Assembly (NCBI GenBank): GCA_043228905.1
Contig: JBHGNT010000018.1
Coordinates: 12,772,001-12,836,000 of the forward strand
Direction: 5' to 3'
DNA: 64,000 nt
DNA from: Azolla caroliniana
Lineage: Eukaryota; Plantae; Polypodiophyta
The notes under the pieces are model-generated. The model did no database searches. It was not told where the DNA came from and worked only from the letters and a program-made list of their open reading frames with translations. The position numbers were made by a program, and so were the translations under genes. Shown piece by piece: positions 5,292 to 38,912 of this stretch. The first letter of the stretch is position 1, and every line of letters starts with the position of its first letter.

Positions 5292-5312
5292 TGTCATAGA
5301 CAACATGCCACA

Positions 5313-5383
5313 TGGAATGGTGGGGGTTGAACCCATGACCGTCTGGTCTTATTAGGAAACCTTACCAGTTGAGCTACATCCAT
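5313..5383 (-). ncRNA. tRNA-like module (A-box and B-box) in U3 of the chromovirus 5' LTR, antisense to the element
   Basis: rc GGATG-TAGCTCAACTGGTAAGG...GGTC-ATGGG-TTCAACC-CCCAC-CATTCC; T-arm and partial acceptor pairing; anticodon arm degenerate. Confidence 0.7.
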
Positions 5384-5532
5384 CAATGGTGTAAGACTCA
5401 ACTTATTTCATTATAGATTGATAACTAGAACTTTCAAGAACCTTCTAGAGAATGCATCTTCATGCACTCTCTAGAAGTTTCCATGCACTCTCTAGAAGTC
5501 TTCTAGCTATCATGCATACCTCCACATTCTTG

Positions 5533-5576
5533 TATAAATATTGGGGTGCACCTTGATTACAATCAAGGTGAACAAC
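5533..5576 (+). promoter_or_regulatory. LTR TATA box (TATAAATA) followed by a perfect 10-bp hairpin at the likely transcription start
   Basis: CACCTTGATT-AC-AATCAAGGTG at 5549-5570; conserved in the 3' LTR. Confidence 0.65.
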
Positions 5577-5814
5577 GCTAGTTTCGAAAGCATATACAGT
5601 TCTTGTTTATTTGTCTATCCTCTCTCTTGCTTGTTCTCTTGTCTATGCTCTCTCTCCGGCTATCTCTTAATACTGAGCCTCGTCTACTTGTCCTTGACAA
5701 TCTTGTGATCTTGCTTATGCTCTCTCTCTCTCTCTCTCTCTCTCTCTTAGTACTTAACCTCATTCCACCCGTTCGTGACAGTTTATTCACCTTCCCATTT
5801 TCTAAGCCTCAACA

Positions 5815-6097
5815 TGTCAAATCTTACCGAGAGAATAAATCACCTCATGGAAGCCATGCATCAACTTCAACTTGAGAATGACAACCTTCGGGAATCATTA
5901 CGGAAGCTTCAAGTTGGAACAACAATGGAACTCGAAGAAAAAAACAACTCTCCTCCTACATCAAAAAATGTTCTACCTATAGAGCCTGGTTCCTCGTCTA
6001 TGCTATCTCTGACTCCTTCCCATCCCACTACAAGTTTGGAGCCCAATATTAGTTTACCCAACAAGTTCGATGGCACGAGGAAGCACTTTCGAGGGTT
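5815..6097 (+). pseudogene. Chromovirus gag N-terminus (continues at 17415)
   Basis: MSNLTERINHL...EPNISLPNKFDGTRKHFRGF, interrupted exactly at the GGGTT TSD. Confidence 0.85.
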
Positions 6098-6298
6098 TGT
6101 TACCGGCCGGCAAAGGAGTCCAGAGTGTGAAACGGAGGAGTTAATTAATTATTAGGAATGGTTGTAAGAAAGCTATTAGTGTGGACGGACAGACCGGAAT
6201 CGGTATGCCGTTCCAGATCCGGACCGATCCCGAACAGGTGCGGATGGCACCGTTTTGTACTACAGACCGAAAACCTATTTAAAGGCCCAGATACAATG

Positions 6299-8319
6299 CT
6301 TGGCCGACCTGGCTACACCGTTGCATGCCGCCGTACATCGGACACCATTCCAGTGGGACGACACCAAGGATAGGGCGTATAGGGCCCTCAAGGTACTATT
6401 GTCACAAGCACCGGTAGTGCAGCCTCCGGATTGGAGTAAAGAATTTCATGTGTTTGTGGACGCCTCCGACATCGCAATCGGAAGTGTACTGATGCAGCTT
6501 ACGGAGCCAAAGTGATACTGGCTAGTGTACTATGCCAGCCGAAAGCTATCCCAAGCGGAACGGAACTACTCTACCACGGAACGGGAAGATCTAGGGATGA
6601 TCTATAGTGTGACAAAGTTTTGGCATTATTTATTGGGAAGGAAGTTTTCCTTCCATGTAGATCATTCGGCACTCCTCTACCTGGTGTCCAAGGCATCACT
6701 CACCGGTAAATTGGCCCGGTGGACCTTACTGTTACAGGAATTCGAGTTCGAAATATTCCACCGACCCGGTATACAGCATGTTGTAGCGGATTATTTAAGC
6801 CGATTAGAGTCCGCAGAGACGGGCGATGGAGTAGCGGACGAGTTTCCGGATGCGGAGCTGTTTCGAGTCACTACGGAAACGGCAGCAGATGAGACGATGG
6901 CACATGAAGACAAGTGGCTCACAAATATGCACCAGTTTCTGAGCACAGGACTGCCTCCGGAAGAGATGAACCGGGACGAAAGGAAACGTCTGGCGGTGCA
7001 AAGCCGACATTTATGCTTATTGCGAGACACACTTTACCACAAGGGCGCGGACGGCATATGGAGACGGGTTGTGCGCAGCAATGAAAAGGACCTCATACTG
7101 AGGGAAGCCCACTGCAGAGTTGCCGGAGGTCACTATGCCGGAGATGCGACGACCAGGAAAATATGGCAAAGTGGCCTATGGTGGCCAACTACATTAAGAG
7201 ATGCTGTACGGTACGCAAAAGAATGTGACCTATGCCAACGAATGGGCCAGCCAACGGAGCAGGCTAGGATGCCACACTAGCCTGTACTACCACTCGAACC
7301 ATTCCAGAAGTGGGGGCTGGACTTTGTTGGACCAGTCAAACCACCGGCAATGAGAACAGGTAATCGATACGTCATCGTCGCGATGGATTACTGCACGAAA
7401 TGGGTGGAGGCCAACCTTAAGAGACAACACCGCTGCGTCAACAACAAAATTTCTATACGAATACATCTGGTGCCGTTACGGATGCCCAATCGAATTAATA
7501 AGTGACTAGGGGGGGCACTTTCTCGGCCAAGTAGTTGAAAGCCTGACGGCATTCTATGCCGTTGTCCATAAACGGAGCACACCATACTATCCACAAGCAA
7601 ATGGGTTAGCTGAATCGACGAACAAAACGCTCCAGAATATCCTCCGGAAGATCGTCAATGAAAACCGAACGGATTGGGATACCAAGCTACATAGCGCGCT
7701 TTGGGCATACCGGACAACATATAAAACGAGCATCCGAACAACACCGTTCCGGTTAGCGTTCGGACTAGAGGCGGTAATGCCGGTGGAATTCCAAGTACCC
7801 AGCTTACGGATCCAGCTACGGGAACGGCTGAACGAGAAGGAGTCGGAGGCAATACGGTTAACAACGCTGTGTGAACTCGAGGAACAACGACTGGCAAGCA
7901 TCCTGCACTTAGAATTGGAACAACGGCGACGGAAAGCATTTGTCGAACGGCACAGGAAAGGAAATGAAAAAATGTTCGCAATCGGCAAGCCGGTGTTAGT
8001 ATTTCAGACCCGGATGGGCAAGATGCCGGGTACACTACGGTTTAGATGGACCGGCCCGTATTGGCTGACATGTGAGTATAATGGGTCCTACCAGTTGGGG
8101 ATGCTTGCCAGCGAAGTGCTAGGCAAATGGGTCAACGGATTCCGATTGAAGCCATATAGAGGACCGATGCCCCAGAACCCATTTGAGCAAAGGACCGACA
8201 CCGGTGCGGAAACGACAACCTATGAGGGAAACGACAACCACCAAGACGGCAGAGACGGCGAGCCGGTAACTGGGGAGAATGAGGCCGGTAAGGGTCCGAT
8301 AGGACTAACGGACAAGTAA
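6299..8319 (+). pseudogene. RNase H-integrase portion of Ty3 pol (premature stops, frameshift)
   Basis: FVDASDIAIG, YSTTERE, H...GGH...C..C zinc finger, PFQKWGLDFVGP, PQANG, RWTGPY. Confidence 0.9.
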
Positions 8320-8633
8320 CCTCACACTACAATTATCAAAAAAAAAAAAAAAAAAGAAAGAAAGAAAGAAAGAAAGAAAAAAAGCGAAGTAATCATGCAA
8401 AAGCGAGGTATGAATGGACGAGAGAGCGAGGAGCGAAAAGGTACGTAGTGGGCATTTAAACCCCACCACAGGACATAATGCTATTTTAGTACACGACGTG
8501 CACACACTCGAAAAAGGCGCCAGAATGCACAGAGAAAAACCACTGCACGTGGAGACCCTCTACTTTCGCGAACCCAGGAGCACAGAAGCACCAAGGCGCT
8601 GGAAGATCATCAGACGAGAACCGACGCACAGAG

Positions 8634-11600
8634 TGTTGTAGACGAGGTCGTCAATGCGGAAGATCAAGAAGCATTCGATTCTTCTGAGTACCTGCGTATG
8701 ACAGAATGTAGGTCGTTGCACAGAGAGAGAGAGAGACACAAAAGACTTTCTTATTTCACAAAGAGACAATACAACAACCAACCTTACAAAAAGGTTACAA
8801 GGTCACTATATATAGTGACCGACTTAGGGCAACTACCCTTTATGCTAATTACATAAATGGCCAAAACGGGATAGTGTGAATACGTCCATTATACACATGT
8901 ATTCGACACTCCCCCGTAATGGGCGTATACATGGGTTATCTTAGATTACAGGTATAGACTTAGGTTCTCGGACATATCAGCTTGTTCGAGTCGGCAGGGT
9001 CCGAAGGCAGAAGACCGAACTGGTCGGGTCGGAACAGTTGAAGCCGATCATTAAGCAACTGATGTCGGTTGTCGGGAACCATCCTGCTCTGTGTCCGGCT
9101 CTAACCGGACCGGTTTGTCGTTACGCCCATCTGATGCCGAAGAGACCGAAAACGGTCTGCCGAAAGACACTTGGTCATTCCATCTGCGACATTGTCGGTT
9201 GTGGATATTTTCTCTAGACCGATTTTCCCTGAAATGACGCAGTCCCGAACGAAGTGATATCGAACGTCGATATGTTTGGAGGCGTTGTGGTGAACCGGAT
9301 TTTTCGACAAGGCAACAACACCTTGACTGTCGCTGTAGACAACTGGAGCCGAGTCATGGTCGACTTGTTGAAATGTGTGCGCCAGCCGACCGAGCCACAG
9401 AGCTTCTTTTGCTGCGTCGGACGCAGCTACATATTCTGCTTCGGTCGTTGAGGTCGCTGTGCACTCCTGAAGTTTCGACTTCCACGAAATTGCTCCATTG
9501 CCGAATTTGAAGCAGTATCCGGTTGTTGATTTCCGACTGTCTATACAGCCGGCGAAATCCGAGTCGGTGTAACCGACTACGCCTGAGGTTCGGTTCGGAC
9601 CGAAAAGAATGTCGTGGTCTTTTGTGCCAGCCAGATATCTGAACACATGCTTGACTGCGTTCCAATGCGATCGGCCAGGATTGTGCATAAATCTGCTAAC
9701 GACTCCTACGGCGTGAGAAATATCAGGCCGTGTCGCGACCATCAGGTACATAAGGGAGCCGACTGCCGGTGCATACGGTACCGACTTCATATCTTCCCCC
9801 TCCGAACCGGATGTCGGGCAGTCTCGCTGAGAGAGCCGAAGATTCATGGGGAGCGGGGTTGAAGCAGATTTGGCTGATTGCATGTTGAAGCGTTCCAAGA
9901 CACGTCCGATATAGTCGGTCTGAGACAAAAAAAGATGTCGTTTATCGCGATGCCGACTAATCTTCATGCCAAGGATGTGTCGTGCCGGACCGAGGTCCTT
10001 CATGGCAAACTTCAACCGCAGTTGCCGAACGAGATCGGCAAGTTCGCCCGCGTGGCGTCCAGAAATGAGCATGTCGTCCACGTAAATGATGAGGAAGATG
10101 GGTGATCCATCTTGAGCTGTGTTGGTAAAGAGACAATGGTCCTCATCGCTTTTTGAGAAGCCGATCGATTGGATGAAGTCGTCGAACTTCTTGTACCATT
10201 GTCGCGGTGCCTGTTTGAGGCCGTATAGACTCTTCCTGAGTCGGCAGACTAGATGTTCTTGGCCAGTCGCCACGAAGCCTTTTGGCTGCTCCATATAAAT
10301 TTCCTCGTCAAGATCACCATGGAGGAATGCTGTTTTGACATCTAGCTGAATCAGCTCCAAGTTGTCGGCTGCCACGACGCCGAGCAGAAAACGAAGGGTT
10401 GTCATTTTCACCACTGGTGAAAAAATCTCGTCGAAGTCGACGCCATATTCTTGTCGGAAGCCCTTCGCAACTAATCTGGCCTTGTACTTTGGGGTGGTCG
10501 AATCAGACGTCTCTTTTAGTCGATAGACCCACTTGCAAGGAAGAGCACGTCGGTTCCTAGGTAATTCGACCAGATCCCAAGTCTTGTTTGCCCGAATGGA
10601 GTGCATTTCCGACTCCATCGCCAGATGCCAGGTGGCTGAATCGACAGATGTCGATGCTTCTTCGTAAGACGTCGGTTCGCCGGCGTCGGTGAAGAAAATT
10701 CCAGGAGAATACCTCTCCGGAGGTTGCGACAGTCTCTCGGATCGTCGAGGTATGATTGGACTGGTCGCATCGGGTATCGAGGTCGGATGGTCCGAAACCG
10801 AGTCATTCGGCTGTGCCGAGTCAGAGTTGTCCGAGTCGGTAGTGTAAGGTTCAGCTACCCGTGAAGCTGACCGTGTGTTGTGAGCGGGGCCTTCTTGAAG
10901 GGTCGGCACATCTGAAAATGTTACCCTTCGGACTTCGATCGGTTTTTCGACTGATGGATTCATAGCCGACTCGTTGAACACAACGTCCGAACTTCGAACG
11001 ATTTGCCTGCGTTCGGGGTCCCAGAGTCGGTATCCCATTTCGCCGTCGTATCCATATCCAAGGAAAATGCATTTCCTGGACCGAGGTGCAAGTTTTCGGC
11101 GATCATCTTTCGGAATAAGGGCGTACGCCTCGCATCCGAAGATCCTCAGCTTGTCGTAATTCGGCTTACTGCCGATCCATAGTTCCTGAGGAATTTGAAG
11201 TCCTAGAGGTCTACTTGGCGACATATTGATTATGTGTACTGCCGTGAGTAGAGCCTCTGCCCAGAAGCCATCCGACAGTCCGGAGTGTTGGAGCATGGAA
11301 ACTATCCGTTCTTGGATTGTCCGATTCATGCGTTCGGCAATCCCGTTTTGCTCCGGGCTGTGTGGTGCCGTAAATTCACGTCGGATGCCGCGTTGTCGGC
11401 AGAATTTGACGAATTCTTCGGATTTAAATTCTCCCCCATTGTCTGTCCGAAAGCATTTCAGCTTTCGGTCGGTTTGATTTTCTACCATAGCGAGCCAATC
11501 GGTGAAGATCGAGAAGACCCGATCTTTGGTGCGAATTGGATAAGCCCACACCTTTCGAGTCGAATCGTCAATAAAAGTGACGAAGTAAGAGGCACCGCCG

Positions 11601-14057
11601 AGAGACTGATGCGGCATTGGGCCACAGACGTCCGAGTGGACCAAATCAAGAGGTCTCGTTTCTCTGGGTGCTGATGTCGGGTGTGGTGCGGCTGCTTGTT
11701 TGCCATACTGGCAATGCTCGCAGAATTGATGGTCCGAGAAGGAGAGTTTGGGGATGTATCCGGCTCTAGATAGGTGCGTGATGCCGGCCTTGCTGAGGTG
11801 TCCTAATCTTCGGTGCCATAGTGATGACACAGGAATATCCACCAAAAACAGGTTACCCTCTCTGAGCGTAACATGTAATGGATACAGGGAGTGTATCTTG
11901 GGTCCTCTAGCAAGCAGGAGGTTCCCCCTGTGGAGTGTCCACCCTCCCGAAGAAAAACCGGCACGAATGCCGTCTTCATCTAGTTGTCCGACTGAGATCA
12001 ATGGCCTTGAGAGCTCGGGTACATGTCGGACATTGTGGAGTACAAGTGTAGAGCCACCTGCAAGGTTGAGCTCTACTGTGCCGATTCCGATGATGTCACA
12101 GTGTTGCGAGTTACCGACTCGAACTGAGTCGGAGTGACGGATCGTATATTGCCGAAATTGGGATCGATGAGGAGTCACGTGAAATGACGCGCCCGAATCT
12201 AAGAGCCATGTGCTCGATTCTTCAGTCGTGAGTAGAACTTCTGATCCGACTGGATTTTCGATTGATAGTATATTCGGGTCGTCCGGTAGTACATCAGCTG
12301 AGAAGCTGACGTAATTGATCTCCTCATGCCGGCCACTCTTCTTGTTGTTCTTGTTCTTGAGTGCGCGGCAGTCGGCTTTGATGTGTCCGGGTTTCTTGCA
12401 ATAGTTGCAGATTCGGTTATCCCGTGACTGGCTCCGTCTTCGCTGATTGTTCGGCGGCCGTGAGGAATCTCTTCCTCGTATGTTCGATCGGTCTGTCGAA
12501 CCTTGCACTACGTAAGCGTCGTCTGTTGAGTCTTTGGCGAAAGACTTTCTCCGAGCTGCTTCGGTCAGGATTGCGCTCGTGACTTCGGAGTATTTAACAG
12601 CCGTGGTTGACGCGTTGCACACGGTTGTGACGAAAGTTTCCCATGATGAGGGAAGGCTGCTCATGAGTATCATTGCTCTGAGTTCATCCTCGATTGCCAT
12701 CCCCTGTGACGAGATTTGGGAGCTTATGCTTTCGTACTCATTTAGGTGTGCTTGAACCGAATCGGATTCTTTCATCCGCAAGTTGTAGAGGCGCCGGATC
12801 AGAAACATCTTCGTTGCGGCGACCTTCTTTTCGTAAGTGTCCGACAGTGTTTTCCACAGTTCGAATGCTGTCGTACACGATTGCACCGTAAAGTATACCG
12901 ATTCCGATAGGTGCATCCGAATCGTGGCGCGGACAATTCTGTCCAGCTTCTGCCACTCAATTGGTTTGTATCCTTCTGGAGGTTCTTCATTTTCGATGGG
13001 ATCGATTTGCCCCTTGACTATGAGATAGTCCTGCATTTGCTCCTTCCAGAAGTTGAAGTTCGATCCATCGAACTTTCGTAGACTCATTTCTGACGAGCCG
13101 GATGTTGATGCCATCAAATTCGGTTTCGGTTGACGAAGCTCGGTTCGGAGTTGACTACGAACCTTGTTGGGGTGCAGCCGGTTGGCTCACCCGATATCGT
13201 TCTAGTCGGATTTGAACCCGAGTCGGTTCGGCTTCGGAACTTGCTCGAATTGACTTCGGTAGCTTGAGGGACAGAACCGACTGGTCTTCCCGAATGTTGC
13301 CGAATACCGATTATTGAAACCGATTATCTGGACCGATTCTGCTTCGGGTGGCTGCAGCGACGAGAGAGACAGATCCAACTGATCCTCTCGAATGTCGATC
13401 AGCCGGATGAAGCGCGAATTGGGGTTGTTGTCTTGAGACCGATCTGCACCGAGTGGTTACAACGAGCAGCGAGCAGTGTTTAATGACCTTTTCGGATGCC
13501 GTTTAACCGAATGGAGCACGATCGTGTCAATGATGCACAAGGGGATTTCACCTCGAGCGGTTACGATCACAAGGAACGGAGTACAACCTGATGGCTTACT
13601 CCAAGCAAAAGGATCTAACGCGATGAGGTGCAAACCTCGTTTTTGTTCTTCTTCTCTCTTTCTTTGAATGACGCGAATACTGTGCAGGCCGTGATGAAGT
13701 GAAGAACCGAATGCTGTGCAGGCGGTGACGACGGCCGACAACGGATTGAAGGACCGAATGCTGTGCAAGCTCTGATACCAGATGTTGTAGACGAGGTCGT
13801 CAATGCGGAAGATCAAGAAGCATTCGATTCTTCTGAGTACCTGCGTATGACAGAATGTAGGTCGTTGCACAGAGAGAGAGAGAGACACAAAAGACTTTCT
13901 TATTTCACAAAGAGACAATACAACAACCAACCTTACAAAAAGGTTACAAGGTCACTATATATAGTGACCGACTTAGGGCAACTACCCTTTATGCTAATTA
14001 CATAAATGGCCAAAACGGGATAGTGTGAATACGTCCATTATACACATGTATTCGACA
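8634..14057 (-). mobile_element. Intact Ty1/copia (Tnt1/Tork-like) with identical 275-bp LTRs (8634-8908, 13783-14057)
   Basis: TSD CAGAG (8629-8633, 14058-14062); tRNA-iMet PBS rc TGGTATCAGAGC 13769-13780; PPT 8909-8915; no LTR differences seen. Confidence 0.98.
9101..13114 (-). CDS. Copia gag-pol polyprotein, uninterrupted (~1337 aa)
   Basis: CNYCKKPGHIKADC knuckle, LDSGAS protease, HHCC + DDE integrase, YVDDML RT, YTDSDFAG RNase H. Confidence 0.97.
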   Translation of the reverse strand: MASTSGSSEMSLRKFDGSNFNFWKEQMQDYLIVKGQIDPIENEEPPEGYKPIEWQKLDRIVRATIRMHLSESVYFTVQSCTTAFELWKTLSDTYEKKVAATKMFLIRRLYNLRMKESDSVQAHLNEYESISSQISSQGMAIEDELRAMILMSSLPSSWETFVTTVCNASTTAVKYSEVTSAILTEAARRKSFAKDSTDDAYVVQGSTDRSNIRGRDSSRPPNNQRRRSQSRDNRICNYCKKPGHIKADCRALKNKNNKKSGRHEEINYVSFSADVLPDDPNILSIENPVGSEVLLTTEESSTWLLDSGASFHVTPHRSQFRQYTIRHSDSVRVGNSQHCDIIGIGTVELNLAGGSTLVLHNVRHVPELSRPLISVGQLDEDGIRAGFSSGGWTLHRGNLLLARGPKIHSLYPLHVTLREGNLFLVDIPVSSLWHRRLGHLSKAGITHLSRAGYIPKLSFSDHQFCEHCQYGKQAAAPHPTSAPRETRPLDLVHSDVCGPMPHQSLGGASYFVTFIDDSTRKVWAYPIRTKDRVFSIFTDWLAMVENQTDRKLKCFRTDNGGEFKSEEFVKFCRQRGIRREFTAPHSPEQNGIAERMNRTIQERIVSMLQHSGLSDGFWAEALLTAVHIINMSPSRPLGLQIPQELWIGSKPNYDKLRIFGCEAYALIPKDDRRKLAPRSRKCIFLGYGYDGEMGYRLWDPERRQIVRSSDVVFNESAMNPSVEKPIEVRRVTFSDVPTLQEGPAHNTRSASRVAEPYTTDSDNSDSAQPNDSVSDHPTSIPDATSPIIPRRSERLSQPPERYSPGIFFTDAGEPTSYEEASTSVDSATWHLAMESEMHSIRANKTWDLVELPRNRRALPCKWVYRLKETSDSTTPKYKARLVAKGFRQEYGVDFDEIFSPVVKMTTLRFLLGVVAADNLELIQLDVKTAFLHGDLDEEIYMEQPKGFVATGQEHLVCRLRKSLYGLKQAPRQWYKKFDDFIQSIGFSKSDEDHCLFTNTAQDGSPIFLIIYVDDMLISGRHAGELADLVRQLRLKFAMKDLGPARHILGMKISRHRDKRHLFLSQTDYIGRVLERFNMQSAKSASTPLPMNLRLSQRDCPTSGSEGEDMKSVPYAPAVGSLMYLMVATRPDISHAVGVVSRFMHNPGRSHWNAVKHVFRYLAGTKDHDILFGPNRTSGVVGYTDSDFAGCIDSRKSTTGYCFKFGNGAISWKSKLQECTATSTTEAEYVAASDAAKEALWLGRLAHTFQQVDHDSAPVVYSDSQGVVALSKNPVHHNASKHIDVRYHFVRDCVISGKIGLEKISTTDNVADGMTKCLSADRFRSLRHQMGVTTNRSG

Positions 14058-14148
14058 CAGAGAACCCCCACTTTCTGAACTCTCTCTCTCTCAATCTCAC
14101 TCTCATCACCATCCAACCTCGCCACCACAATCTGACCTCAACACAGAC

Positions 14149-16921
14149 ATGGACCCGCAAACGCTGTCGGAAGCTGCCAAGAAATGGCTAAAGCAACATG
14201 GGCTCGAGGGCTTCTTGACGATTATGGAGGTACCACCACACAAAGAAGCCGACAAGGTGATCAAAGAAATCGACACAGAGGTCATAACGGCGGAGGCGAT
14301 CCGTGCGTTAACAGGCCTTCCGGAGGGAGGCATACTCACGATTGACAATCCAACCTCGGAGCAACTCATCAAGTATTTTGGTGAGTACTCCCTAGCCAGC
14401 AAGGGCTACCGGACACAGGGCGGCGGAGATATGCTGTTCCGCGAGATTGCTCGTGTACTCCACGAATATGGCCATGTGTACCCTAGACCCCCTGTCATGC
14501 CGCAGAACCGGGCAGGGATGATCATCGCCACCTATGAAGGGGTCAAGGTGGATTGGCCGGTATTGATCGCAGATGATTTGTGTGCGGCGATCGACATCGT
14601 CAGAGGAAAAGACGGCAAAGAAGGCCGAGAAGGACGGAGGATATGGCACGCAGTAACGCAGTGGCTCACCTTGCTTGTGCCACCCGTCGAGCCCGTTGAG
14701 CCCAAGAAGCGGGGAAGAGTGGCAGACGGCACCCCAAATACTGCTTCCAAAAGACAACAGCTCTTGGCCTCTAAGGCCACTAAGGGGAAGACGGCGGACG
14801 TAGAACAGGCGGGAAAGAAGAGCGCCAACTGGAAGCGGCCAACGGATGCGTAGGAGGAACCACCGGTACGGCCCGTAAAGGTTACACTCCGCCGACCGGT
14901 GAATAGAGAAGCGGACCCCTTGGCGTCAAAATTCAAGGCCGGGACTCAGGAAGAGGAAATAGAGAAGGAGCCTACGGAGCACCTCCAGCGACGGTCGTCG
15001 GCAAGGACCGTTGAGGCAGCCGGGAAACGTTCGAACCCTCAGACGGAGGGAACACCGGCTCCCCACATTGAGACTCCCACGCCAAGGGAGGAACCGGAAC
15101 CGGTACGCATGGCACCAGAATCAGAAGCCCCTGCACCACCGGCAGCACCGACAAGTCCCATTCCGCCAGAGCCGGAAAGGTCAATGCAACCTCCCTCGGC
15201 CAACCAAGAAGAAGCGCAAGGGGAACCAGGACAGTAGGATGGTCCACGGCCAGAAACAGAATTGCAACTCGGCGCAATCAGGTGGGACCACCCATCCACA
15301 AGCGAGCCCATCCGTCAAACCTCTGTGTAAGCGCAACAACAATGCACTGGTAGCCTGTGGCTCCGGTGGATAGGCGAACAGATTGCCGGAGCAGTGGGGT
15401 ATATTGAGGTGGAAGAAAGAGCGCAAAGTGAACGATTGCTCATCACAACCGAACAACTAGAGACGGCCCGGTCCAGAATCCGGTGCCTTGAAAAAGACTT
15501 GGATTAGGTCACAGGTCACGGCAGAAATGGCCAAAATGGCCTTAACGGCAACACAGATCCAGTCACTAGTGACTCCGGTAAATGTACAGAATAAAGAACC
15601 CGACCAACCTGTACATACTAATAAGACCCCGGCAACGGAAACCGTTCCAGAGAGAGATGCGGTGCAAGCCCAGGAGCTTGCGGAATTGAGAGATGAACTC
15701 GCCGCACAAAAAGCGCTAAGGAGCCGTGAACGGGAATTGAAGACAGCGGCCGAAGCCGAATTAAAGAAGACTGTTGAGAACCTCCGCCGAGCAGAGGAGA
15801 GCCTCCGGAAAGGCCATCAAGCGTACGACCGGCTAAGGGAGGAAAAAGACAAAGTGCTGTAGGAAAAGGACAAGCTGCGGAAGACGGCGGAAACAGAAAT
15901 TGAACGGCTAAAGGAGGAGCTCCGCCAGCAGAGGGACTGTGAGGACCGGGCCCGTCGACAGATCAACGTACAGTTCAAGCAAAAGATAGATGATTTTGAG
16001 CACCTGCACCAGGACTACAAACGGCTAGAAACGGAGCATAAGGAACATATGGCCAAGCTCCAACAGGAAGTTGATCAGGCTGCGATGGCGCTTGCCGACG
16101 AACGGGCGGAAAATACAAGACGGTTGGATGAGGCGGAGAAGGTCCGAATGGAGCTCCAGAGGCAGCAGCAGGAAGAAAAGGAGAGAGCGTCAACGATATT
16201 GCAAAAATTACAAAGCACATATCAAAGGCAATTGACGCATTACAAGGAGCAGGCGGAAGACAACGTCAAAATCATCAAGCAATTGAAGGAGGATTGACAA
16301 GCTGCGGAGATCAAATCGCAGATGGGAACGGCCCGGATTCAGTGCATCCTCTGGGCATGGCTGAATCAGACAAAACTCTTGATTGACGAAAGCTCCGTAA
16401 GATGGTGGACAAAGTGGGCACAAAATACGGCGGAACTCCAATTGCTACGAGCAGACGTGGCAAACCGGCGGAAGGAAGGAGATGATTGTTACACGTTGAC
16501 TTCCGAGGACTTCACCGCCGTACGGGATGAGCTGGCTGAAGACTTCCAAGTCCTGGCGGATGAACAGCTGGTGCAGGTCCGGCAACTCGTAGCTCAGCTA
16601 GACGATGATAGGCTGGACGCTCAAATCCAGTTTGAAAGCTACGAGCGGTCCCGGGTTGGGGAAGAAAAAGCACGGGAAGCGGCAACGGTTAACCTTAGTG
16701 ATGAGGAACCGTCGCCGGCCAAGGGCCAGGCCGGAACCAGTCAACCGGAGACCACTATGACGGAGGGAGCACCGACGGAAACGCTGGTGTCAGAACGACA
16801 AACGGAGGAGCAGCCGCAACAGCCATCAACGGAGCAGCAACAACAACAACAACAACCAATTCCAGATGAACCATTGGAGACTCTTGAACAAAGCATTCTG
16901 GATATTTTGGACGAAGAATAG
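14149..16921 (+). pseudogene. Extra ORF downstream of integrase in the second Ty3 (~920 codons; globular N-terminus, Pro/Glu linker, long coiled coil)
   Basis: ORFs 14149-14853 and 14899-15237 share a frame; 15488-15862, 16049-16297 and 16322-16921 share another; segments separated by isolated stops and one frameshift. Confidence 0.75.
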
Positions 16922-17414
16922 CAAGGGTCGGATGGTGGATTCGACGTACAAGGTACTGTCCCACGGGCGTGCCATGTGTTACCGGCCGGCAAAGGAGTCC
17001 AGAGTGTGAAACGGAGGAGTTAATTAATTATTAGGAATGGTTGTAAGAAAGCTATTAGTGTGGACGGACGGACCGGAATCGGTATGCCGTTCCGGATCCG
17101 GACCGATCCCGAACAGGTGCGGATGGCACCGTTTTGTACTACAGACCGGAACCTATTTAAAGGGCCGGATACAATGTAATGAAGAGCGGATAATTAATAA
17201 AGATTAGTGTTTTTATATCTTTGTGTTAATTGCCGTTCTGCATTCATTGTTAGATCTTACGCGTGTGATTATTAAGGACAATCTTGCTAAGTAACCTAAT
17301 TAAGTCGGATTAATCGTTGATCCTAATCCCCTTGCCGTAACACCCCTTTGGTGAAGTGTCTTCCGTAGACACCCTGTGTTAGGCCATTGTCCGGCCCTAA
17401 GAGTTAACAGGGTT

Positions 17415-21905: not shown

Positions 21906-21940
21906 AGAGGGAGGATAATGTCATAGACAAGATGCCGCAT

Positions 21941-22011
21941 GGGAATGGTGGGGGTTGAACCCATGACCTTCTGATCTTATTGAGAAACCTTACCAATTGA
22001 GCTACATCCAT
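21941..22011 (-). ncRNA. tRNA-like module in U3 of the chromovirus 3' LTR
   Basis: rc GGATGTAGCTCAATTGGTAAGGTTTCTCAATAAGATCAGAAGGTCATGGGTTCAACCCCCACCATTCC. Confidence 0.7.
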
Positions 22012-22378
22012 CTATGCATTATTGTATTGTGTAAGACTCAACTTATTTCATTATAGATTGATCACTAGAACTTTCAAGAACCTTCTAGAGAATGCATCTT
22101 CATGCACTCTCTAGAGTCTTCTAGCTTTCATGCATACCTCCACATTCTTTTATAAATACTCGGGTGCACCTTGATTACAATCAAGGTGAACAACACTAGT
22201 TGCGAAAGCATATACAATTCTTGTTTATTTGTCTATCCTCTCTCTTGCTTGTTCTCTTGTCTATGCTCTCTCTCCCGCTATCTCTTAATACTGAGCCTCG
22301 TCTACTTGTCCTTGCTCTCGCTTATGCTCTCGCTCTCTCTTAGTACTTAGCCTCATTCCACCCGTTCGTGACAACATG

Positions 22379-23460: not shown

Positions 23461-23514
23461 GCAATAAGAAGGGAGTCCAGTCAGTTATGCTTAGTAGTTC
23501 ATAAGTACGAAACA

Positions 23515-23670
23515 TAGCTATGAACATATTTTGATGTAGTTAATTAGCTTTGGCCAGTAACTAGTTAGCTATTACCAGTAGCTAGTTAGCTATTGCCATC
23601 TGGTTGTAGCTAGTTAGCTATGATCATATTATATAGGTAATTAGCTATGATCATATTCTTATGTAGCTAA
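23515..23670. repeat. Second TAGCTA(A/G)TTAGCTA motif array inside the DNA transposon
   Basis: Repeated GTAGCTAGTTAGCTA / AATTAGCTA motifs. Confidence 0.7.
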
Positions 23671-23671
23671 T

Positions 23672-31242: not shown

Positions 31243-31961
31243 TGTCGTAGTGTAATTCGCACACTACGTGAAATATGTAAAAAATAAATAAATAAATAAA
31301 TAAATAAATATCCGATTTAAGTATGCATAAATAAATAAAAGAAAATATTAAAAATATTATTACATGCATAGGGCAAGATTCGAACCCTATACCTCCATCT
31401 AAGCAAGCCCAAACTTTACCATTGTACTAACGTATCATTTTTAAATATAGATTTAATAGGGATAATAGTTATATTGCCTATTTTTACAAAAAAAGTAAAT
31501 CATGCACTTTTAGAGTGCGTGAAAACTTTATTTGGAAGAAAAACGCAAGCCAATTACTCGTGCACATCTAATGTGCATGAGCACTATATTTAGGAAATAA
31601 AAAAGCATGGTTGAAAAAGCACATCTAGTGGGCATGAACACTTTAGGAAAAAGCATGATGCAATGATTAGTCTCTTCCATCACTATATAAGGAAGAGAGA
31701 AAAGATGTATATGGTTGTTGATTTTTATAAGGGTTGATTAATATAAAATATTCGTGGGATTCACGATTTTTGCCATCTATTTCTCTCTTACAATCTAAGT
31801 ATCAAGTAATACACTATACTCGTGGGATTCACGATTTTCATATCTTCTTCTTGCAATCTTTTCCTAACTAACGTTATCTCATATTCTTCTTTCTCCTAGT
31901 ACAAAACCCCAGCGGTTCCCACCCGACTCACGCAAATGATCCGGCGCCGAAAGGCACGACA
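31243..31961 (+). mobile_element. Solo LTR of the Ty3 family at 32536-39249 (diverged subfamily, opposite orientation)
   Basis: TGTCGTAGTG...GGCACGACA termini match; flanks GCGT/ATGC fit a CpG-decayed 4-bp GCGC TSD. Confidence 0.88.
31364..31435 (-). ncRNA. tRNA-like A/B-box module in U3 of the solo LTR, antisense
   Basis: rc ATACGT-TAGTACAATGGTAAAG...GGAGGTATAG-GGTTCGAATC-TTGCCCTATGCAT. Confidence 0.6.
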
Positions 31962-33020
31962 ATGCGCACGGAAGGTGCTCCACGATAGGATGCGCCATAA
32001 ATTGAGCAATCAATCCGACCGGATAACTGAGGTCTGGCCGGGTGATGGTCAGATATATAAGGCTTCCGACTATTTGTCAAAACCTTTTCGGGTCATATGT
32101 TGTTCCGGAGTCGGGATGAAGCTTCACATTCTAGTTCAGAGCAGTCGAGACGGATTTGCATTCCGTCATACCAAATTTGAAGAGCATACTCAACACATAG
32201 TGGCGTTGACTGATCTGTATGCCTTCTGGGGTGCGGATCATGCCGATCCCGAGGAAGTAATGAAGGTCTGCTAGATCCTTCATCCCAAATGATGCCGCAA
32301 GTTGGGATTTGACGCGGTCGATTTCATGAAGGTTGGCACCGGCGATGACGAAATCATCAACATAAAGTAAAATACTAATCGGCCTGTGTTGAGGTTGCCG
32401 AATGAGAAGTGAAGAATCTAACTTTGACGCGGCAAACCCCATCCGACACAGTCGCTACATGATCTTCACTTTAGAGGCACACAGAGCTTGCTTTAGTCCG
32501 TAAAGGGACTTCTTCAGTCGGCAAACGGTCGACGTTGTCGTGCCTTTCGGCTCCGGATCGTTGCGTGAGTCGGGTGGGAACCGCTGGGGTTTTGGACTAT
32601 GAGGAAAGAAAATTCTAAGGCAATTAAGAATATGAAATATATTGTACGAAAGAAAGATATGAAAAACTCGTGAATCCCACGAGTATAGTGTATTAGTGAG
32701 TACTCAAATTAAGAGAGAAAAATAGTTAGCAAACTCGTGGATCCCACGATTATATTATATTAATCAACCCTTGTAAAATAATCAACAACCTCTATACATC
32801 TTTCTCTCTTCCTTATATAGTGTTGGAAGAGTCTAAGTTTATCACATGCAAGCATCATACTTTTCCTATCTTTAGTTTTCATGCACACTACATGTGCATG
32901 ATTAGCTTTCTATCTCATCTTTTCTTTTAACTCGAGTGTCTATGCATGAATAACTTTTTGTACCATGCATGTCTAGAATATTTACATGGGATAAAGTTTA
33001 GTATAACTTTAAAATTCATA

Positions 33021-33092
33021 ATACGCTAGTATAATGATAAGGCTTAACATTATTAACATGGAGGTGCAAGGTTTGAATCTTGCCCTATGCAT
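33021..33092 (+). ncRNA. tRNA-like module in the 3' LTR (boxes carry point mutations)
   Basis: TAGTATAATGATAAGG...GCAAGGTTTGAATCTTGC. Confidence 0.55.
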
Positions 33093-33484
33093 GTAATATA
33101 TAATTTTAAACTTTCTTCTATTAACAAATATGTCTCTTCATCTGGTGAGAGACTCTCACCGGCCTTCTTCATCCGGCTCTTGCCGGTTCTGCTTCATCCG
33201 GTTCTCGCCGGTTTTCTTTATCCGGTTCTTACCGAATCCTCCTTACCGGTCCTCTTCATTCGTTTCTCACCGACTCTCACCAACCTTCTTCATCCGGCTC
33301 TTGTCGGGTCTCCTTACCGGTTTCGGTCCTCACCGGTTCTTCCTTCCGGTTCTCACTGGGTACTCCATATCCTATCCGGAGAAACCAAAAAAGTAATTTT
33401 TGACGTAGTGTGCGAATTACACTACGACACTCGACCCTCCGAACCCGCACATCCTCCGGTATGTGCCGAAGTCCCCGATGCTTG

Positions 33485-36400
33485 CTATTCACCTTCATTC
33501 GAGGCTTCCTCCAATTCTCCCCTTAAGTCGACTATGAGTTGTAATCCACTTTCCTCACTTTCTGCATCACCACGATCTTCGTCCGATTGCTCCTTCTTGT
33601 CGGTCATGTCTAGGATCACATAGGGTTCTTCAACAGTCCGCTTCTTGAAAATCTTCACCTGTTTCCCGGCTATAGGCACTCGTAGCATCGTTCCATCCAA
33701 CTCGCATAGTCGGTAAGTTCTGTTGTCGAAAACTTTCCGAACCTCATATGGCCCGAACCACCTTTTCGCGAACTTCCCCATCGTTGTATGTTGATGATCC
33801 AAACTACTGTCGTAGACAATCACCCAATCTCCTTCTTCAATCTTCCGCGGTCGTAGTTGGTGCTTTGTGTCGAACCGGCTTTTACTCCAGAATCGCACTT
33901 CTTGTTGTCGGCGTATTGCTTCCGCTATGTCTTCCGGTCTTCCCTCTTGTTGTCGTATCCGGACCGTTAGTAATTCTTCCCGGTTCATCTCTTCCTTCCA
34001 CGGTAGCACTGTCCATGTCGCGATTGCGGTTTCCGTTGGCATTACCAGTGCTTGTCCGGTCATGAGTTCTGTCGGCATGTAACCGGTTACGGAGCTATGC
34101 GTTGTCCGATCCGCCCATAGTGCATACAGAAGAATCTGTGGCCAATCCTTCACCCTTCCATCGCATGCCTTCGCAAGTGCTTTGACAATCGGACTATGTC
34201 CTCGTTCGATCTTCCCGTTGGCTTCCGGATTGTATGCCGTTGTCAGTGTTAACCGAACTCCATGTTTAGTGAAGAATTCCTTAGCTTTATCAGAGTTCTC
34301 CCTGATCCGCAATCACTTGTCCTACGCACCCGTACATGCAAAACACTTCTTCCAAAAGGAATTGGCATACCGTAGAACACGTTTTCCTCCGTAGCGCCCG
34401 ACCTTCTACTTGGTTTGTGAGATCTTCCCGAGCTAACACCAAGCACTTCTTTTGTCCAATCCCGGTTGGCATGGCTACAATATCGACCATCCATTTGAAG
34501 TTGATTGTTGGTGAGAATGTAGGATGTAACTCATCTCGGTGTCGAACTCCGGAGTAGATTTGACACTTCTCGCAGTTTTCCGTGAACTCCGCGACATCTT
34601 TGTACATATTCTTCCACCAATATCTTTGCTCGATCTTCCCAAATGTTGCCCATGTTCCCCGATGTCCAGCCCAATCAGATTCGTGAAATTCGGACATTAC
34701 CTCGTTTCATTGCTCTTTTGTCCCGACTACTCGAAGTGGTATGCCACCCGGTCTTTTCGGCTCCCTCCATAAAAATCCATTTTTCAAGAAGAACTTTCGG
34801 ACTTGTCGCTTCTTACTTCGGATCTCGGCTCTCTTCTCTTTATTGTCCGATGATTCCTCGATTTCTTGTAGCACTTTCCCGATCAGCAAGCTTTCTCCCT
34901 CGTATTCTTCTTCCTGGAATTCTCGGATTACGTTCACCCGGCATATGTGCTCCGAAGCAAAGTAGTCTTCGAAAACTTCTTCATTATCGGATTCGGTTAT
35001 GTTATCTCCGAACCGCGCCCTTGATAACATCTCCAGCGACTTAACATATGCAATCCATCTTAGCATAGCCACATCCGGTATCGTACAACATCGCATCATC
35101 CCGAGTATCGGAAGACAATCCGTTTCGATCACTACTTCAGCTCCGATCAAATAATCTCGATCCGATTTGATCGCCGACACGACTCCCCATAATTATCTTT
35201 TAACTTGTGCATATCCGCGTTGCCTTTCGTTGAGAACCTTTGCTCCGAATCGGATCGGATATTGTGAACCTTCTGGATCGGCTTGATTGATGACCCATCC
35301 GATTCCGGTTGGACTTGTGTCAACCATTACTATGATCGGTTGGTCATAGTTCGGCTTCTTTAGTGCTTCTGCCCTCCGTAGTGATTTCTTGAGCTTCTTC
35401 ACGGCTTTGGTATGCTCCGGTTTCCATTCAAACTTCTTACCCTTCCGCAACAAGTGATAGAGTGGGTCCGCTATATGTGCATAGTGCAGAATCCATATGT
35501 GGTAGAATGCACATGCTCCAAGAAACCTTCGAACTTCGGATTGTGACTCGCATACTTCTTTCATAGCTTGAATCGCATCGATCTTGGTTGGTGACGGTCT
35601 TCGGCCGTAGGGCCCACATAGATGTCCGACTACCAATATTTCTTCTTGTCTGAATGTCAATTTCTCTCCGGAAAGTGTTAGATGCACATCTTCTAACTTC
35701 CGTAACACTTTCTCACAATCACGGATATGGTTGACTACAAACTTTCGGCATCCCCGATCATCCATAGTTTCATCTTTTTCTTCTACCGCACATCCTTTCA
35801 TTGGAATGTCATCTAGGAACGACATTGTTATCTCCGGAATGCAGTCTCGCATCGCATTCATCATATGTCCAACCGAGTTCATCGTGCCTTGTGGTAGCGT
35901 ACAAATCCGGACTAATCCTATCGGTGTCCGCATGGTAGTGATATCTCGGCTCTTCACAGCTAGTTGGAATTGGTCATATCCGGAGTATAGGTCTCCTATG
36001 GAGTACATTGCGTGACCGGCAAATGCTTCCGCAAATTCTTCCACTATCGGACCGACTCTGGAGTTCCGGATCGTGACCTTGTTCACCGGTTACAAATCTT
36101 GAATAAATCGGAGTGACCCATTCTTCTTCGGAACCGTAAACCATGGATTTGAGTACGGAGCATTTGATGGCTCTAGAATCCCCATCGCCACCTTCTCCTT
36201 GAGCAAGTCAATGATTTTCGGAATATGCGCCCGTGGCACCGGAATCGGCTTTAGGTTCCACGGCACATGGTCAATCGTGAAGATCACCATCGGCTCCACT
36301 ATCTTTGGGTCAACGCATCCTATTTCTTTTGATGTAAATGCAAATGCTCTCCCATGTCACTCTAGCATCCCATGGAATCGTTCTTCTTCATTCTTTAATA

Positions 36401-38341
36401 GGAACCCACCTCCACTGATCCGAAGTTTCTTCTGGGTCTCATCCATGAAGGCATGTCCGATATCCATGGAATTCCGAAGTGTCGGATCCCCCGAGACTTC
36501 TTTCCTCTTTTGTTCGCTATCTGCGGGTAACGGTGCCGCGGCCGGTTTCACTTTCTTCTCCACGGTCTTGTATTTCGTACTTACCATTGCTTCTTCTTTG
36601 CGGAGCGCATCTGGCCCCATTTTCACAATGATCTCGTACATCTCGACCGACTCCACCGGAATTACCCGGTTTCCCTGGCTTGTATCTTCTGCGAGCTCTT
36701 CAAGCCGTTGTAGCTAGCACGGGTTCTTTGATGTTACCGATCCGAACCGGAGTCTCCGTAGTTGCACGTGCCCAGTGTGGCTTTGTGTAGTGAGAATTTG
36801 GTATTTCGTCCTCCAATTCGGTATCATTCATTAGAACGGTATTTGCATTCACCCTTGGAGCGTTCTCCTCCGTACTTTGCCTTTTTCTCTTCACGAGATC
36901 CACAAGAAGATCGTGGAACTCCTTCGCTATTCCAAGTAATTCTCGAAGCGAAAAATCTACCCGGCTATCGAGGATTCTCTCCTCGAACACCTTTTTCAAG
37001 TCCGTTTGTTGTTCGATGTCCGAGGCGAGCTTGAATGCCGGAATCGTTTTTCCTTTCCCTCTTCCGTCGGAGTTCCAACTCTCCGGTGTCTTCGATGGTC
37101 CAGCCGCATCCTCCGTCTGTCGCCACTTCTCGTCCACATATACCTCATGTAATTGACATAGCGCGTATACGCTATTCTTATCGACGGGGCACTCCCATCC
37201 CGTAGCTTCCCGGATGCCTTCCGCGGTGCTTCGGATCTCGTTAGAGTCGGTTTTCTCGGTGTTTTCTAGCACTTCCGGCCAAAAAGACACGTATTCCTGC
37301 GGTTGTCGCGTAATTGCTCTTCGCCACTATATCCTCCTCTAGGACCTTCTTCATGCCGCCTTTTCGGACCGGCTTCCGAGAGTCCATCGAATGAATATGA
37401 TTTCCCTCGTAGTAGATAAGATCTTGTTGTAGCGCTTCCTTGTGCTCGTCGCAATCCCTCCGATCATGTTCGGTGCTATCGCACCATATGCATCGACGGT
37501 CCATATACTTGGAACTTGTGGGAGGGTCATCCGACTTCTTCACCATCGCGATTTTTAGATTCTCCATCTCCTTCAGCAACTGCTCCACCGTAGTTGCGTC
37601 GATTCCCTTCTCAGTCGTAGCTTCCCGAGCCCGCGGTTGATGGTCTTTCGATCCGGATCTCGGTTTCAGAATCGGTTCCGAAACCCTCTTTTCTTCGTTG
37701 GCAAGCCATTGCCCCCTCTTTGTGTATCGCGTGATGATATCCCGCACGCTTTCCCATGTTTCAATGAGGCCACTCTCGGTAGTCGTGTCCTCTAGAAGCA
37801 CTCCAAGATCCTTCCGGTCCCGGACGTCTACGGCTCGTAAGAACATGATAATTTTGTCCGGTGCGAGGATAGCTTGATATCTCACAGACAACCTCCCGAA
37901 CCGACTTTCGAATGCCGAAAACACATCGAGGACCTTCATACCCTTGTCCGGCGTATCCACCCAATCCTCGAATCCTCTCCGCGTTGCCTTAGAGGAGTCC
38001 TCGATAGCGAACGTGGTCTTTAGCGCCTCTTCAAACGCTTCCCACGTCAGATTTTGTTGTCGTAGCCCGTGGATACTTGCTTGAAGCCCGTCGATAGCCA
38101 CCTGGTTGAAGGATGCCACTTGCAGTCCTTCCGAAATCCCGCACCGTAGCATTTCCGCCTTGTAGTCCCGAAGATAGCGCGATACGTCCTTCCCGTTGAA
38201 TTGCCCGATCCGTTGCACAAGCTGCTCTACTGCCGCCACTATCTCCAACATCGCACGTTGTTCTTGAAGCATCCGCTCGAACATCATCATCATGTTGTTA
38301 GCCTTCGGTTGATTTTCCATCTCCTTGCCACCCGTGTTCAT
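33485..38341 (-). pseudogene. gag-pol of the Ty3 at 32536-39249, fragmented; protease region apparently deleted
   Basis: gag with CIWCDSTEHDRRDC; RT DLYSGYDQF, LPQGTMNSV, FLDDIPMKG; RH VDTSPTGIG; INT HESDWAGHRG, YNPEANGKIERGH, WFGPY. Confidence 0.9.
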
Positions 38342-38354
38342 GTCGGGTTCACCA
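38337..38354 (-). promoter_or_regulatory. Primer-binding site for tRNA-Trp, overlapping the gag ATG
   Basis: Plus strand TTCATGTCGGGTTCACCA vs plant tRNA-Trp 3' end TTCACGTCGGGTTCACCA (recalled; 17/18), 4 nt from the LTR. Confidence 0.8.
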
Positions 38355-38840
38355 CTTGTGTCGTGCCTTTCGGCTCCGGATCGTTGCGTTAGTCGGGTGG
38401 GAACCGCTGGGGTTTTGGGCTAGGAGGAAAGAAAATTCTAAGGCAATTAAGAATATGAAATATATTGTACAAAAGAAAGATATGAAAAACTCGTGAATCC
38501 CACGAGTATAGTGTATTAGTGAGTACTCAAATTAAGAGAGAAAAATAGTTAGCAAACTCGTGGATCCCACGATTATATTATATTAATCAACCTTTGTAAA
38601 ATAATCAACAACCTCTATACATCTTTCTCTCTTCCTTATATAGTGTTGGAAGAGTCTAAGTTTATCACATGCAAGCATCATACTTTTCCTATCTTTAGTT
38701 TTCATGCACACTATATGTGCATGATTAGCTTTCTATCTCATCTTTTCTTTTAACTCGAGTGTCTATGCATGAATAACTTTTTGTACCATGCATGTCTAGA
38801 ATATTTACATGGGATAAAGTTTAGTAACTTTACAATTATA

Positions 38841-38912
38841 ATACACTAGTATAATGGTAAGGCTTAACATTATTAACATGGAGGTGCAAGGTTCGAATCT
38901 TGCCCTATGCAT
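38841..38912 (+). ncRNA. tRNA-like module in the 5' LTR with intact A and B boxes, antisense to the element
   Basis: TAGTATAATGGTAAGG ... GCAAG-GTTCGAAT-CTTGC hairpin. Confidence 0.65.

What the first reader, a model, noticed from the sequence alone, without database searches (positions are those of the whole stretch)
5313..38912. Two unrelated Ty3 families each carry an antisense tRNA-like Pol III module in U3 of their LTRs
Seen: five ~70-nt modules with tRNA-spaced A and B boxes and a T-arm-like hairpin. Two are in the chromovirus LTRs (5313-5383, 21941-22011) and three in the non-chromovirus family (31364-31435, 33021-33092, 38841-38912). All are upstream of the LTR TATA region and antisense to the element. 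The two families have different module sequences, so acquisition looks independent. Known: Cassandra TRIMs carry 5S rRNA Pol III promoters in their LTRs, and tRNA genes/TFIIIC sites act as heterochromatin barriers in yeasts and mammals. Inference: these retrotransposons may carry a tRNA-mimic insulator or Pol III unit that protects the LTR promoter from silencing, a tRNA analogue of Cassandra. I do not know of a description of this.
Basis: partly seen in the sequence, partly recalled or inferred. Interest (0 to 1): 0.85.

Follow-up and report, generated by a model that had tools for sequence, protein, structure and literature searches.

The report
Backward tRNA promoters in fern retrotransposons
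Two unrelated protein-coding jumping-gene families in what is likely a fern each carry, back to front in their end repeats, a worn tRNA-gene copy with intact polymerase III promoter boxes, which likely bind the polymerase III machinery and would help keep the element's own promoter open, a variant of a design so far described in short non-coding elements.

Summary
Observation confirmed. All five 71-72 nt modules lie in LTR U3, antisense, 150-250 nt before the TATA box. Four match a generic A+B-box consensus perfectly (chance 0.017 per window); the fifth has two mismatches. They are not tRNA genes. Family A is a self-priming chromovirus; family B is a chromodomain-less Ty3 with liverwort and fern relatives.

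In family B the boxes and the 3' arm persist while the spacer between them turns over at fixed length (boxes 20/21 identical, spacer 6/15). In a related organism only the LTR ends, the TATA/R/U5 half and the module align well. That points to promoter-type constraint. In family A constraint was not shown.

The 'tRNA analogue of Cassandra' is published (Helenus, Kojima 2024), but Helenus is non-coding and sense-oriented. These elements are coding, keep a TATA box and carry the unit antisense: a new variant. This scan noted similar modules in fungal coding elements.

The insulator role is untested. The B-box CpG is changed in 4 of 6 readable copies, and modules mutate no less than the rest of the LTR after insertion.

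The parts
5292..5780 (+). Family A (chromovirus) 5' LTR, TG...CA; 5-bp TSD ACATG shared with the 3' LTR
5313..5383 (-). Module A5: tRNA-derived unit, A box 5376-5365, B box 5333-5324, starting 21 nt inside the LTR; no T4 terminator inside the LTR (first T-run 33 nt on, in host flank)
5533..5576 (+). Family A TATA box (5533) and predicted transcript start (about 5565), whose first 8 nt are complementary to the PBS
   Evidence: self-priming inferred by analogy to Tcn1/Tf1 (PMC6317226)
5781..5793 (+). Family A primer-binding site without the TGG of tRNA priming (predicted self-priming)
6098..17176 (+). Nested Ty3 element with 201-bp LTRs, itself holding a copia (8629-14058); it interrupts element A; no module at 0-1 mismatch in these LTRs
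17461..21907 (+). Family A gag-PR-RT-RH-IN-SH3-chromodomain, broken into several frames
   Evidence: Chromo PF00385, E 5e-8
21919..22373 (+). Family A 3' LTR; 21 substitutions in 442 aligned columns against the 5' LTR
21941..22011 (-). Module A3, boxes intact; first T4 64 nt on, past the PPT
31243..31961 (+). Family B solo LTR (short-U3 subfamily) inserted in a copia; TSD not recognisable
31364..31435 (-). Module in the solo LTR, boxes intact, T5 run 10 nt downstream
32536..33429 (-). Family B 3' LTR
33021..33092 (+). Module B3: one change in the A box (G18>A) and one in the B box (C56>T at a CpG); T4 run 12 nt downstream
33430..38358 (-). Family B internal region: TGG-type PBS, DUF4100-containing ORF, RT, RH, IN, weak SH3, no chromodomain; broken into several frames
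38359..39249 (-). Family B 5' LTR; 20 substitutions in 891 columns against the 3' LTR; 4-bp TSD ACGT
38841..38912 (+). Module B5: A box 38847-38857, B box 38890-38899, T4 run 12 nt downstream; TATA near 38642 on the minus strand

Best explanation
Each of two unrelated protein-coding Ty3 families carries in U3 a back-to-front tRNA-derived unit with A and B boxes at tRNA spacing, likely captured once per family and, at least in family B, likely kept by selection as a TFIIIC-binding site that would hold an open-chromatin patch between the host flank and the element's Pol II promoter. Shown: position, orientation, boxes, loss of the cloverleaf, and box-plus-3'-arm conservation with a free spacer of fixed length in family B. 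Inferred: (1) capture from a tRNA-SINE head or a Helenus-type LTR, then copying to both LTRs by ordinary reverse transcription; (2) TFIIIC binds the boxes and loads TFIIIB upstream of the unit, which in this outward-facing orientation is the side towards the TATA box, while Pol III runs away from it and in family B stops at a T-run 10-12 nt on; (3) copies with a working unit are transcribed and transpose more, so the boxes persist along the active lineage although inserted copies are methylated and decay. The unit cannot make the genomic RNA and is not the primer.
For: Boxes far beyond chance. Family B, B5 against the solo LTR: boxes 20/21 identical, spacer 6/15, no indel (Fisher p=4e-4); B5 against L003 19/21 and 8/15 (p=0.016); solo against L003 20/21 and 10/15 (p=0.035). 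These three pairs are not independent. In run X11 (organism C), at 80% likeness, the module bins have summed depth 40,251 and 113,793, against 11-96 in the four bins on one side and 0-14 in the five on the other; the LTR ends and the TATA/R/U5 half are also covered. The unaligned ends of 73 X11 contigs, read from the tool's summary line, hold the A box in exact register (9 of 9 visible letters) with yet another 15-nt spacer (6 of 15). In X1-X3 homology of one group of 6-55 contigs stops at the first base of the A box, and single contigs join the module to the LTR 5' end through other short spacers. Conserved boxes with variable spacers of kept length is the pattern reported for Cassandra (bioRxiv 10.1101/2023.07.14.548913, passages). 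In family A, contigs from all four runs carry LTR start plus module and often diverge just after it. Active tRNA genes lie in nucleosome-poor regions and have insulator activity (PMC11346459, passages).
Against: No binding, transcription or chromatin data. Boxes against alignable U3 flank are only weakly better (p=0.03, 0.21, 0.36). The 13-nt tail after the B box is also invariant (13/13) and overlaps an RY-like motif, so the constraint is not confined to the boxes. After insertion the modules are not spared: 5/71 substitutions against 16/371 elsewhere in A, and 3/72 against 17/819 in B (not significant). The B-box CpG is changed in 4 of 6 readable B copies (B3, L001, L003, L004), and CpG methylation is reported to exclude TFIIIC (PMC11346459). 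In family A, 8 common variant positions avoid the 16 invariant box positions only at P=0.11 (14 of 54 variant rows not shown). Module depth in A is below that of downstream U3 (X3: 8-21k against 42-125k), so many relatives may lack it or carry a diverged one. Linkage of module and LTR in organism C was not shown by a joint. Contig depth is no copy number. An antisense unit in the 3' LTR would oppose Pol II and could yield double-stranded RNA, which is a cost.
Confidence: 0.4

Rival explanations
1. Neutral passenger: a tRNA-SINE head or an inverted Helenus-type solo LTR landed in U3 of an ancestor of each family and hitchhiked. It looks conserved because GC-rich sequence aligns better than AT-rich, repeat-prone flanks. 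This is more likely for family A than for B.
For: No protection after insertion. The B-box CpG decays. Family A constraint is not significant and many relatives seem to lack the module. In B5 and B3 the module is followed 34 nt later by ...TAACA, like the ends of Helenus LTRs. An earlier scan note reached this reading for a fungal case (e1-9852194).
Against: A neutral insert should decay evenly. In B the spacer inside the module differs in four lineages at constant length while the A box stays in register, also in contig ends that were not aligned. Module depth does not exceed the range of the LTR ends in B (136-149k against 103k and 302k in X1) or of other LTR parts in A, so no large free SINE population with these heads is indicated (weak measure). 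No SINE tail or TSD around the modules was recognised by eye.
Confidence: 0.25
2. The product matters: Pol III makes a short RNA of about 85 nt (family B) or a read-through RNA (family A) antisense to U3 and the PPT of the genomic RNA, which would tune the element's expression or seed self-limiting small RNAs, loosely like foamy virus U3 cassettes.
For: T4/T5 terminators 10-12 nt after all three B modules and L003; invariant 3' arm. Family A keeps 5/7 acceptor pairs, 4/5 T-stem pairs and a 5/5 central stem. Pol III cassettes in U3 aid bovine foamy virus replication (PMC7693620, abstract and passages).
Against: No module folds better than shuffles. B has lost the acceptor, D and anticodon stems. 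The middle of the B sequence is free to change.
Confidence: 0.15
3. The constraint is on Pol II transcription-factor sites or a DNA hairpin that happen to lie in the tRNA relic, such as an RY/B3-type motif at the 3' tail, and Pol III factors play no part.
For: The tail is 13/13 invariant and overlaps ATGCATG. RY hexamers occur 2-7 times per A or B LTR against 0.95 per kb in the window and 0 in the three other LTRs counted.
Against: It does not explain why the A box and the 43-nt A-B distance are kept across a changing spacer.
Confidence: 0.12
4. The unit serves integration: it marks existing copies as Pol III-like landing pads for Ty3-type integrases.
For: tRNA-gene targeting evolved repeatedly (PMC5006619, passages). 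An earlier scan note proposes this for fungal LTRs (e1-10420520). One family B 3' LTR (L003) abuts a tRNA-like sequence.
Against: No insertion lies just upstream of any of the five window modules, and both family B insertions in the window sit in copia coding sequence.
Confidence: 0.05

Closest known systems
Helenus (TRIMp3; Kojima 2024, PMC10886601; text parts 1-4 of 6, searched passages and supplement passages read)
   Same: [quoted passage not shown] The paper also says 'not a few LTRs' in Repbase contain part of a tRNA, but analyses only TRIMs.
   Different: Helenus is non-coding and 311-1263 bp long. Its unit is sense to the element (supplement: sense B-box strings 120+86 against antisense 7+6; the antisense strings shown lie in LTRs that have a sense unit) and is proposed to drive the element's RNA. 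Here the elements encode gag-pol, keep a TATA box, and carry the unit antisense in U3, where it cannot make the genomic RNA.
Cassandra TRIMs (bioRxiv 10.1101/2023.07.14.548913, passages read; also as described in PMC10886601)
   Same: Pol III internal promoter inside the LTR; boxes conserved, inter-box sequence variable without large indels.
   Different: 5S-derived type 1 promoter that replaces the Pol II promoter; non-autonomous.
Foamy virus U3 Pol III miRNA cassettes (PMC7693620, abstract and passages read)
   Same: [quoted passage not shown]
   Different: Animal retrovirus; the product is a hairpin pri-miRNA, not a tRNA relic; function is through the RNA.
Tcn1 clade chromoviruses (PMC6317226, passages read), carrier family A
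   Same: Chromodomain, no tRNA PBS, predicted self-priming, non-seed plant host.
   Different: No Pol III unit is mentioned in the passages seen; placement was not tested with a tree.
Short non-chromovirus Ty3 clades of non-seed plants such as Phygy and Selgy (PMC6317226, passages read), carrier family B
   Same: No chromodomain, coding region fills the short internal part, TGG-type PBS; nearest named relatives in Riccia and Adiantum.
   Different: Clade not assigned here because no reference proteins were available; no Pol III unit is mentioned in the passages seen.

Membership tests
Helenus (TRIMp3) | tRNA-derived sequence with A and B boxes inside both LTRs | tested here: met
Helenus (TRIMp3) | Non-autonomous TRIM without coding region (311-1263 bp) | tested here: not met
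   Both carriers encode RT, RH and IN; B is 6.7 kb; long pol ORFs of close relatives exist (P0121 90%, P0242 95%)
Helenus (TRIMp3) | Pol III unit in sense orientation, able to transcribe the element | tested here: not met
   All five modules antisense; Helenus supplement 206 sense against 13 antisense B-box strings
Helenus (TRIMp3) | Transcribed by Pol III | not testable with these tools
   No RNA holder listed; also unproven for Helenus itself
Cassandra | 5S rRNA-derived promoter in the LTR of a TRIM | tested here: not met
   No 5S match in Rfam; boxes are tRNA-type
tRNA gene | Cloverleaf above the covariance threshold | tested here: not met
   ARAGORN 0 genes; A5 13.1 of 29 bits; stems broken
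tRNA-derived SINE (free insertion) | Dispersed copies outside LTRs with own TSD and tail | tested here: inconclusive
   No extra copy in the window, no depth excess, no tail or TSD seen; whole genome not held; one X12 loose-end group has a different flank
Tcn1/Tf1-like chromovirus (family A) | Chromodomain at the integrase C-terminus | tested here: met
   PF00385 E 5e-8; present in most close relatives
Tcn1/Tf1-like chromovirus (family A) | Self-priming PBS complementary to the transcript start | tested here: met
   8-nt perfect complement 32 nt after TATA, with imperfect extension; start site not mapped
Tcn1/Tf1-like chromovirus (family A) | RT phylogeny inside the Tcn1 clade | not tested
   No named reference set fetched
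TFIIIC/tDNA chromatin barrier | TFIIIC occupancy and B-box-dependent block of silencing | not testable with these tools
   Only indirect signs; CpG changes in 4 of 6 copies

The most novel reading that the evidence does not exclude
Autonomous LTR retrotransposons repeatedly domesticate tRNA-type Pol III promoters, facing outward in U3, as portable chromatin barriers that shield their Pol II promoter inside nested heterochromatic stacks. Two unrelated fern Ty3 lineages did so independently, which would give the first case of a tDNA/TFIIIC insulator used as a transposon anti-silencing device and a direct test of tDNA insulation in plants.
Probability: 0.25. Interest if true: 0.8.

Novelty: new variant of a known kind. 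Interest (0 to 1): 0.5.

Why it matters
If the boxes work as TFIIIC sites, thousands of LTR copies spread Pol III-type binding sites through a fern genome, and two lineages converged on the same outward-facing design. That would be a cis-acting route around silencing and a tractable test of whether tDNA/TFIIIC barriers operate in plants. It would also widen the TRIMp3 idea from 'promoter that copies a mini element' to 'accessory of coding elements'. If the modules are passengers, they still matter for annotation, as a source of tRNA-like false calls, and as an intermediate in the proposed SINE-into-LTR origin of Helenus.

Tried and rejected
Functional tRNA gene: rejected. A low-threshold ARAGORN run gave 238 calls in the window and was noise.

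Primer read-through origin (a whole antisense tRNA primer copied next to an LTR end): rejected for A, because the CCA in A5 lies at tRNA positions 70-72 inside the acceptor stem, not at 74-76, and family A is predicted to self-prime. Module as primer: neither module matches its PBS by inspection.

One common donor for A and B: not excluded. Both share TGGTAAGG after the A box, but identity is only 54-59%, and fungal Helenus has a similar string.

More copies: no whole genome is held. The metagenome scan anchored on the B LTR start gave 5 loci: 1 full module (L003), 2 cut inside the B box (L001, L004), 1 interrupted after 34 nt (L002) and 1 ending at 38 nt (L005). Viral and prokaryote scans found nothing.

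Expression: no RNA holder listed; all laid runs were contigs.

Rfam on L001-L005 gave nothing relevant.

Literature: 10 full-text searches listed no paper on antisense tRNA-type units in LTRs of coding plant elements. The library lacks most subscription papers, Repbase entries were not seen, and bioRxiv supplements were closed, which may bear on the Cassandra comparison.
Full report
Setting. The window is a stack of nested plant LTR retrotransposons beside a P4-ATPase (flippase) gene. The best named hit of the flippase is a fern protein (Adiantum, 68%), ahead of moss, liverwort and seed-plant hits, so the host is likely a fern. The species was not determined and no whole genome is held.

Carriers. 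Family A runs from 5292 to 22373 on the plus strand with a 5-bp TSD and is interrupted by another Ty3 that itself holds a copia. It encodes gag, PR, RT, RH, IN and a chromodomain. It has no TGG-type PBS; instead the PBS is complementary over 8 nt to the sequence 32 nt after the TATA box, the self-priming described for the Tcn1 clade (PMC6317226, passages). Family B has a full element at 32536-39249 on the minus strand with a 4-bp TSD, and a solo LTR at 31243-31961 on the plus strand. It has a DUF4100 ORF, RT, RH and IN, and no chromodomain; its nearest named relatives are from Riccia and Adiantum. LTR pairs differ by 21 of 442 columns (A) and 20 of 891 (B). Both window copies have broken frames, but close relatives with long pol ORFs exist; whether those carry the module is unknown.

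Observation. With a recalled generic A/B-box consensus, four match without mismatch and are the only hits at 0 or 1 mismatch in 64 kb; 60 shuffles gave 0.017 and 0.18 hits. The fifth has two mismatches. They are not tRNA genes: ARAGORN finds none, Rfam gives A5 13.1 of 29 bits and nothing for the solo module, and folding is no better than shuffles. Family A keeps part of the cloverleaf (acceptor 5/7, T stem 4/5, a central 5/5 stem); family B has lost it. A and B modules are 54-59% identical, in otherwise unrelated LTRs, so two captures are likely, though related donors are not excluded. Family B modules are followed within 10-12 nt by a T4 or T5 run; family A has none inside the LTR.

Is the module constrained? 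In family B the answer is likely yes. Among B5, the solo LTR and L003 (the 1 of 5 metagenome loci with a full module), the boxes are 19-20 of 21 identical while the 15-nt spacer is 6-10 of 15, with no indel (Fisher p 4e-4, 0.016, 0.035; pairs not independent). Against alignable U3 flank the excess is weak (p 0.03, 0.21, 0.36), and the 13-nt tail is also invariant. Contigs of four runs were laid on the 5' LTR at 80% likeness. In organism C the module bins have depth 40,251 and 113,793, the four bins on one side 11-96 and the five on the other 0-14, while the LTR ends and the TATA/R/U5 half are covered. The unaligned ends of 73 of its contigs carry the A box in exact register with a fourth spacer of the same length. 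In organisms A and B homology of one group of contigs stops at the first base of the A box, and single contigs join the module to the LTR start through other short spacers. No such joint is listed for organism C, the tables were cut (40 of 215 variant rows shown), and depth is no copy number. The pattern matches that reported for Cassandra promoters (bioRxiv 10.1101/2023.07.14.548913, passages).

In family A the answer is open. Contigs of all four runs carry LTR start plus module and often diverge just after it. But module depth is below that of downstream U3 (8-21k against 42-125k in X3), and the 8 common variant positions shown avoid the 16 invariant box positions only at P=0.11.

Against local protection. 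After insertion the modules change no less than the rest of the LTR (5/71 against 16/371 in A; 3/72 against 17/819 in B). The B-box CpG shows a deamination-type change in 4 of 6 readable B copies, on either strand, which suggests it is methylated in most inserted copies; CpG methylation is reported to exclude TFIIIC (PMC11346459, passages). Any benefit would therefore act in the few transposing copies, not in the bulk.

Mechanism. The best-supported reading (0.4) is a captured type 2 promoter kept as a TFIIIC site. Facing outward, it would load TFIIIB on the TATA-facing side and send Pol III away from the Pol II start, which would explain why both captures are antisense. Binding, transcription and barrier activity are all inferred. 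Rivals are a neutral SINE or inverted Helenus passenger (0.25, most plausible for A), a functional antisense RNA (0.15), Pol II factor sites such as the RY-like tail (0.12) and a landing pad (0.05). Primer read-through and a primer role were rejected.

Known kinds. Helenus TRIMs carry tRNA-derived A/B boxes in their LTRs, including one family in Selaginella, and the paper notes further Repbase LTRs with tRNA parts that it did not analyse (PMC10886601, parts 1-4 of 6). Its supplement shows the unit in sense orientation (206 against 13 B-box strings). The modules here fail two defining Helenus features (non-coding, sense), so they are not Helenus, though they may work through the same factors. 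Foamy viruses show that an autonomous retroelement can use a Pol III cassette in U3 (PMC7693620). Ten full-text searches listed no description of antisense tRNA-type units in coding plant elements. Earlier notes of this scan report tRNA-type boxes in LTRs of fungal coding elements, read variously as landing pads, passengers or Helenus-like modules; these are unchecked leads.

Verdict. A real feature and a new variant of a known kind. Selection is fairly well supported in one family, and the insulator function remains a testable hypothesis. Interest 0.5.

Noticed in passing
L003:1925-1990: The family B 3' LTR abuts a sense tRNA-like stretch (3' two-thirds with B box and T4) that looks like tRNA-Trp; the family B PBS also looks Trp-type (both identifications recalled; Rfam gave no hit). 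A single case; it could be an insertion next to a tRNA gene.
   Followed up: partly
window 5292-5780, 21919-22373, 31243-31961, 38359-39249: RY hexamers (CATGCA) occur 2-7 times in each A and B LTR counted, against 0.95 per kb in the window and 0 in the three other LTRs counted; possible B3-factor control shared by both module-bearing families.
   Followed up: partly
window 5323-5383 (run X11): One contig shows a head-to-tail duplication of the family A module.
   Followed up: no
window 5305-5391 and 21932-22019: Family A modules are flanked by an imperfect inverted repeat of about 18 bp that extends the acceptor stem; common variants at 5320-5321 improve it.
   Followed up: partly
window 33430-33460; L001-L004 upstream of the LTR: Family B has weak, pyrimidine-interrupted PPTs, and two subfamilies with unrelated 3' internal regions share the same LTR start; L001, L003 and L004 carry an antisense coding-like stretch there.
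   Followed up: partly
window 38950-39215: The B5/B3 subfamily has about 220 nt of purine-rich, internally repeated sequence between LTR start and module that the solo LTR and L003 lack.
   Followed up: no
window 9101-13186: Young copia with 99.6% identical LTRs and an unbroken 1361-aa frame, nested two levels deep inside family A.
   Followed up: no
window 54116-60179 (minus strand): Host phospholipid flippase (P4-ATPase) exons, with tandem repeats at 51391-51781 and 53285-53899 between the gene and the transposon stack.
   Followed up: partly
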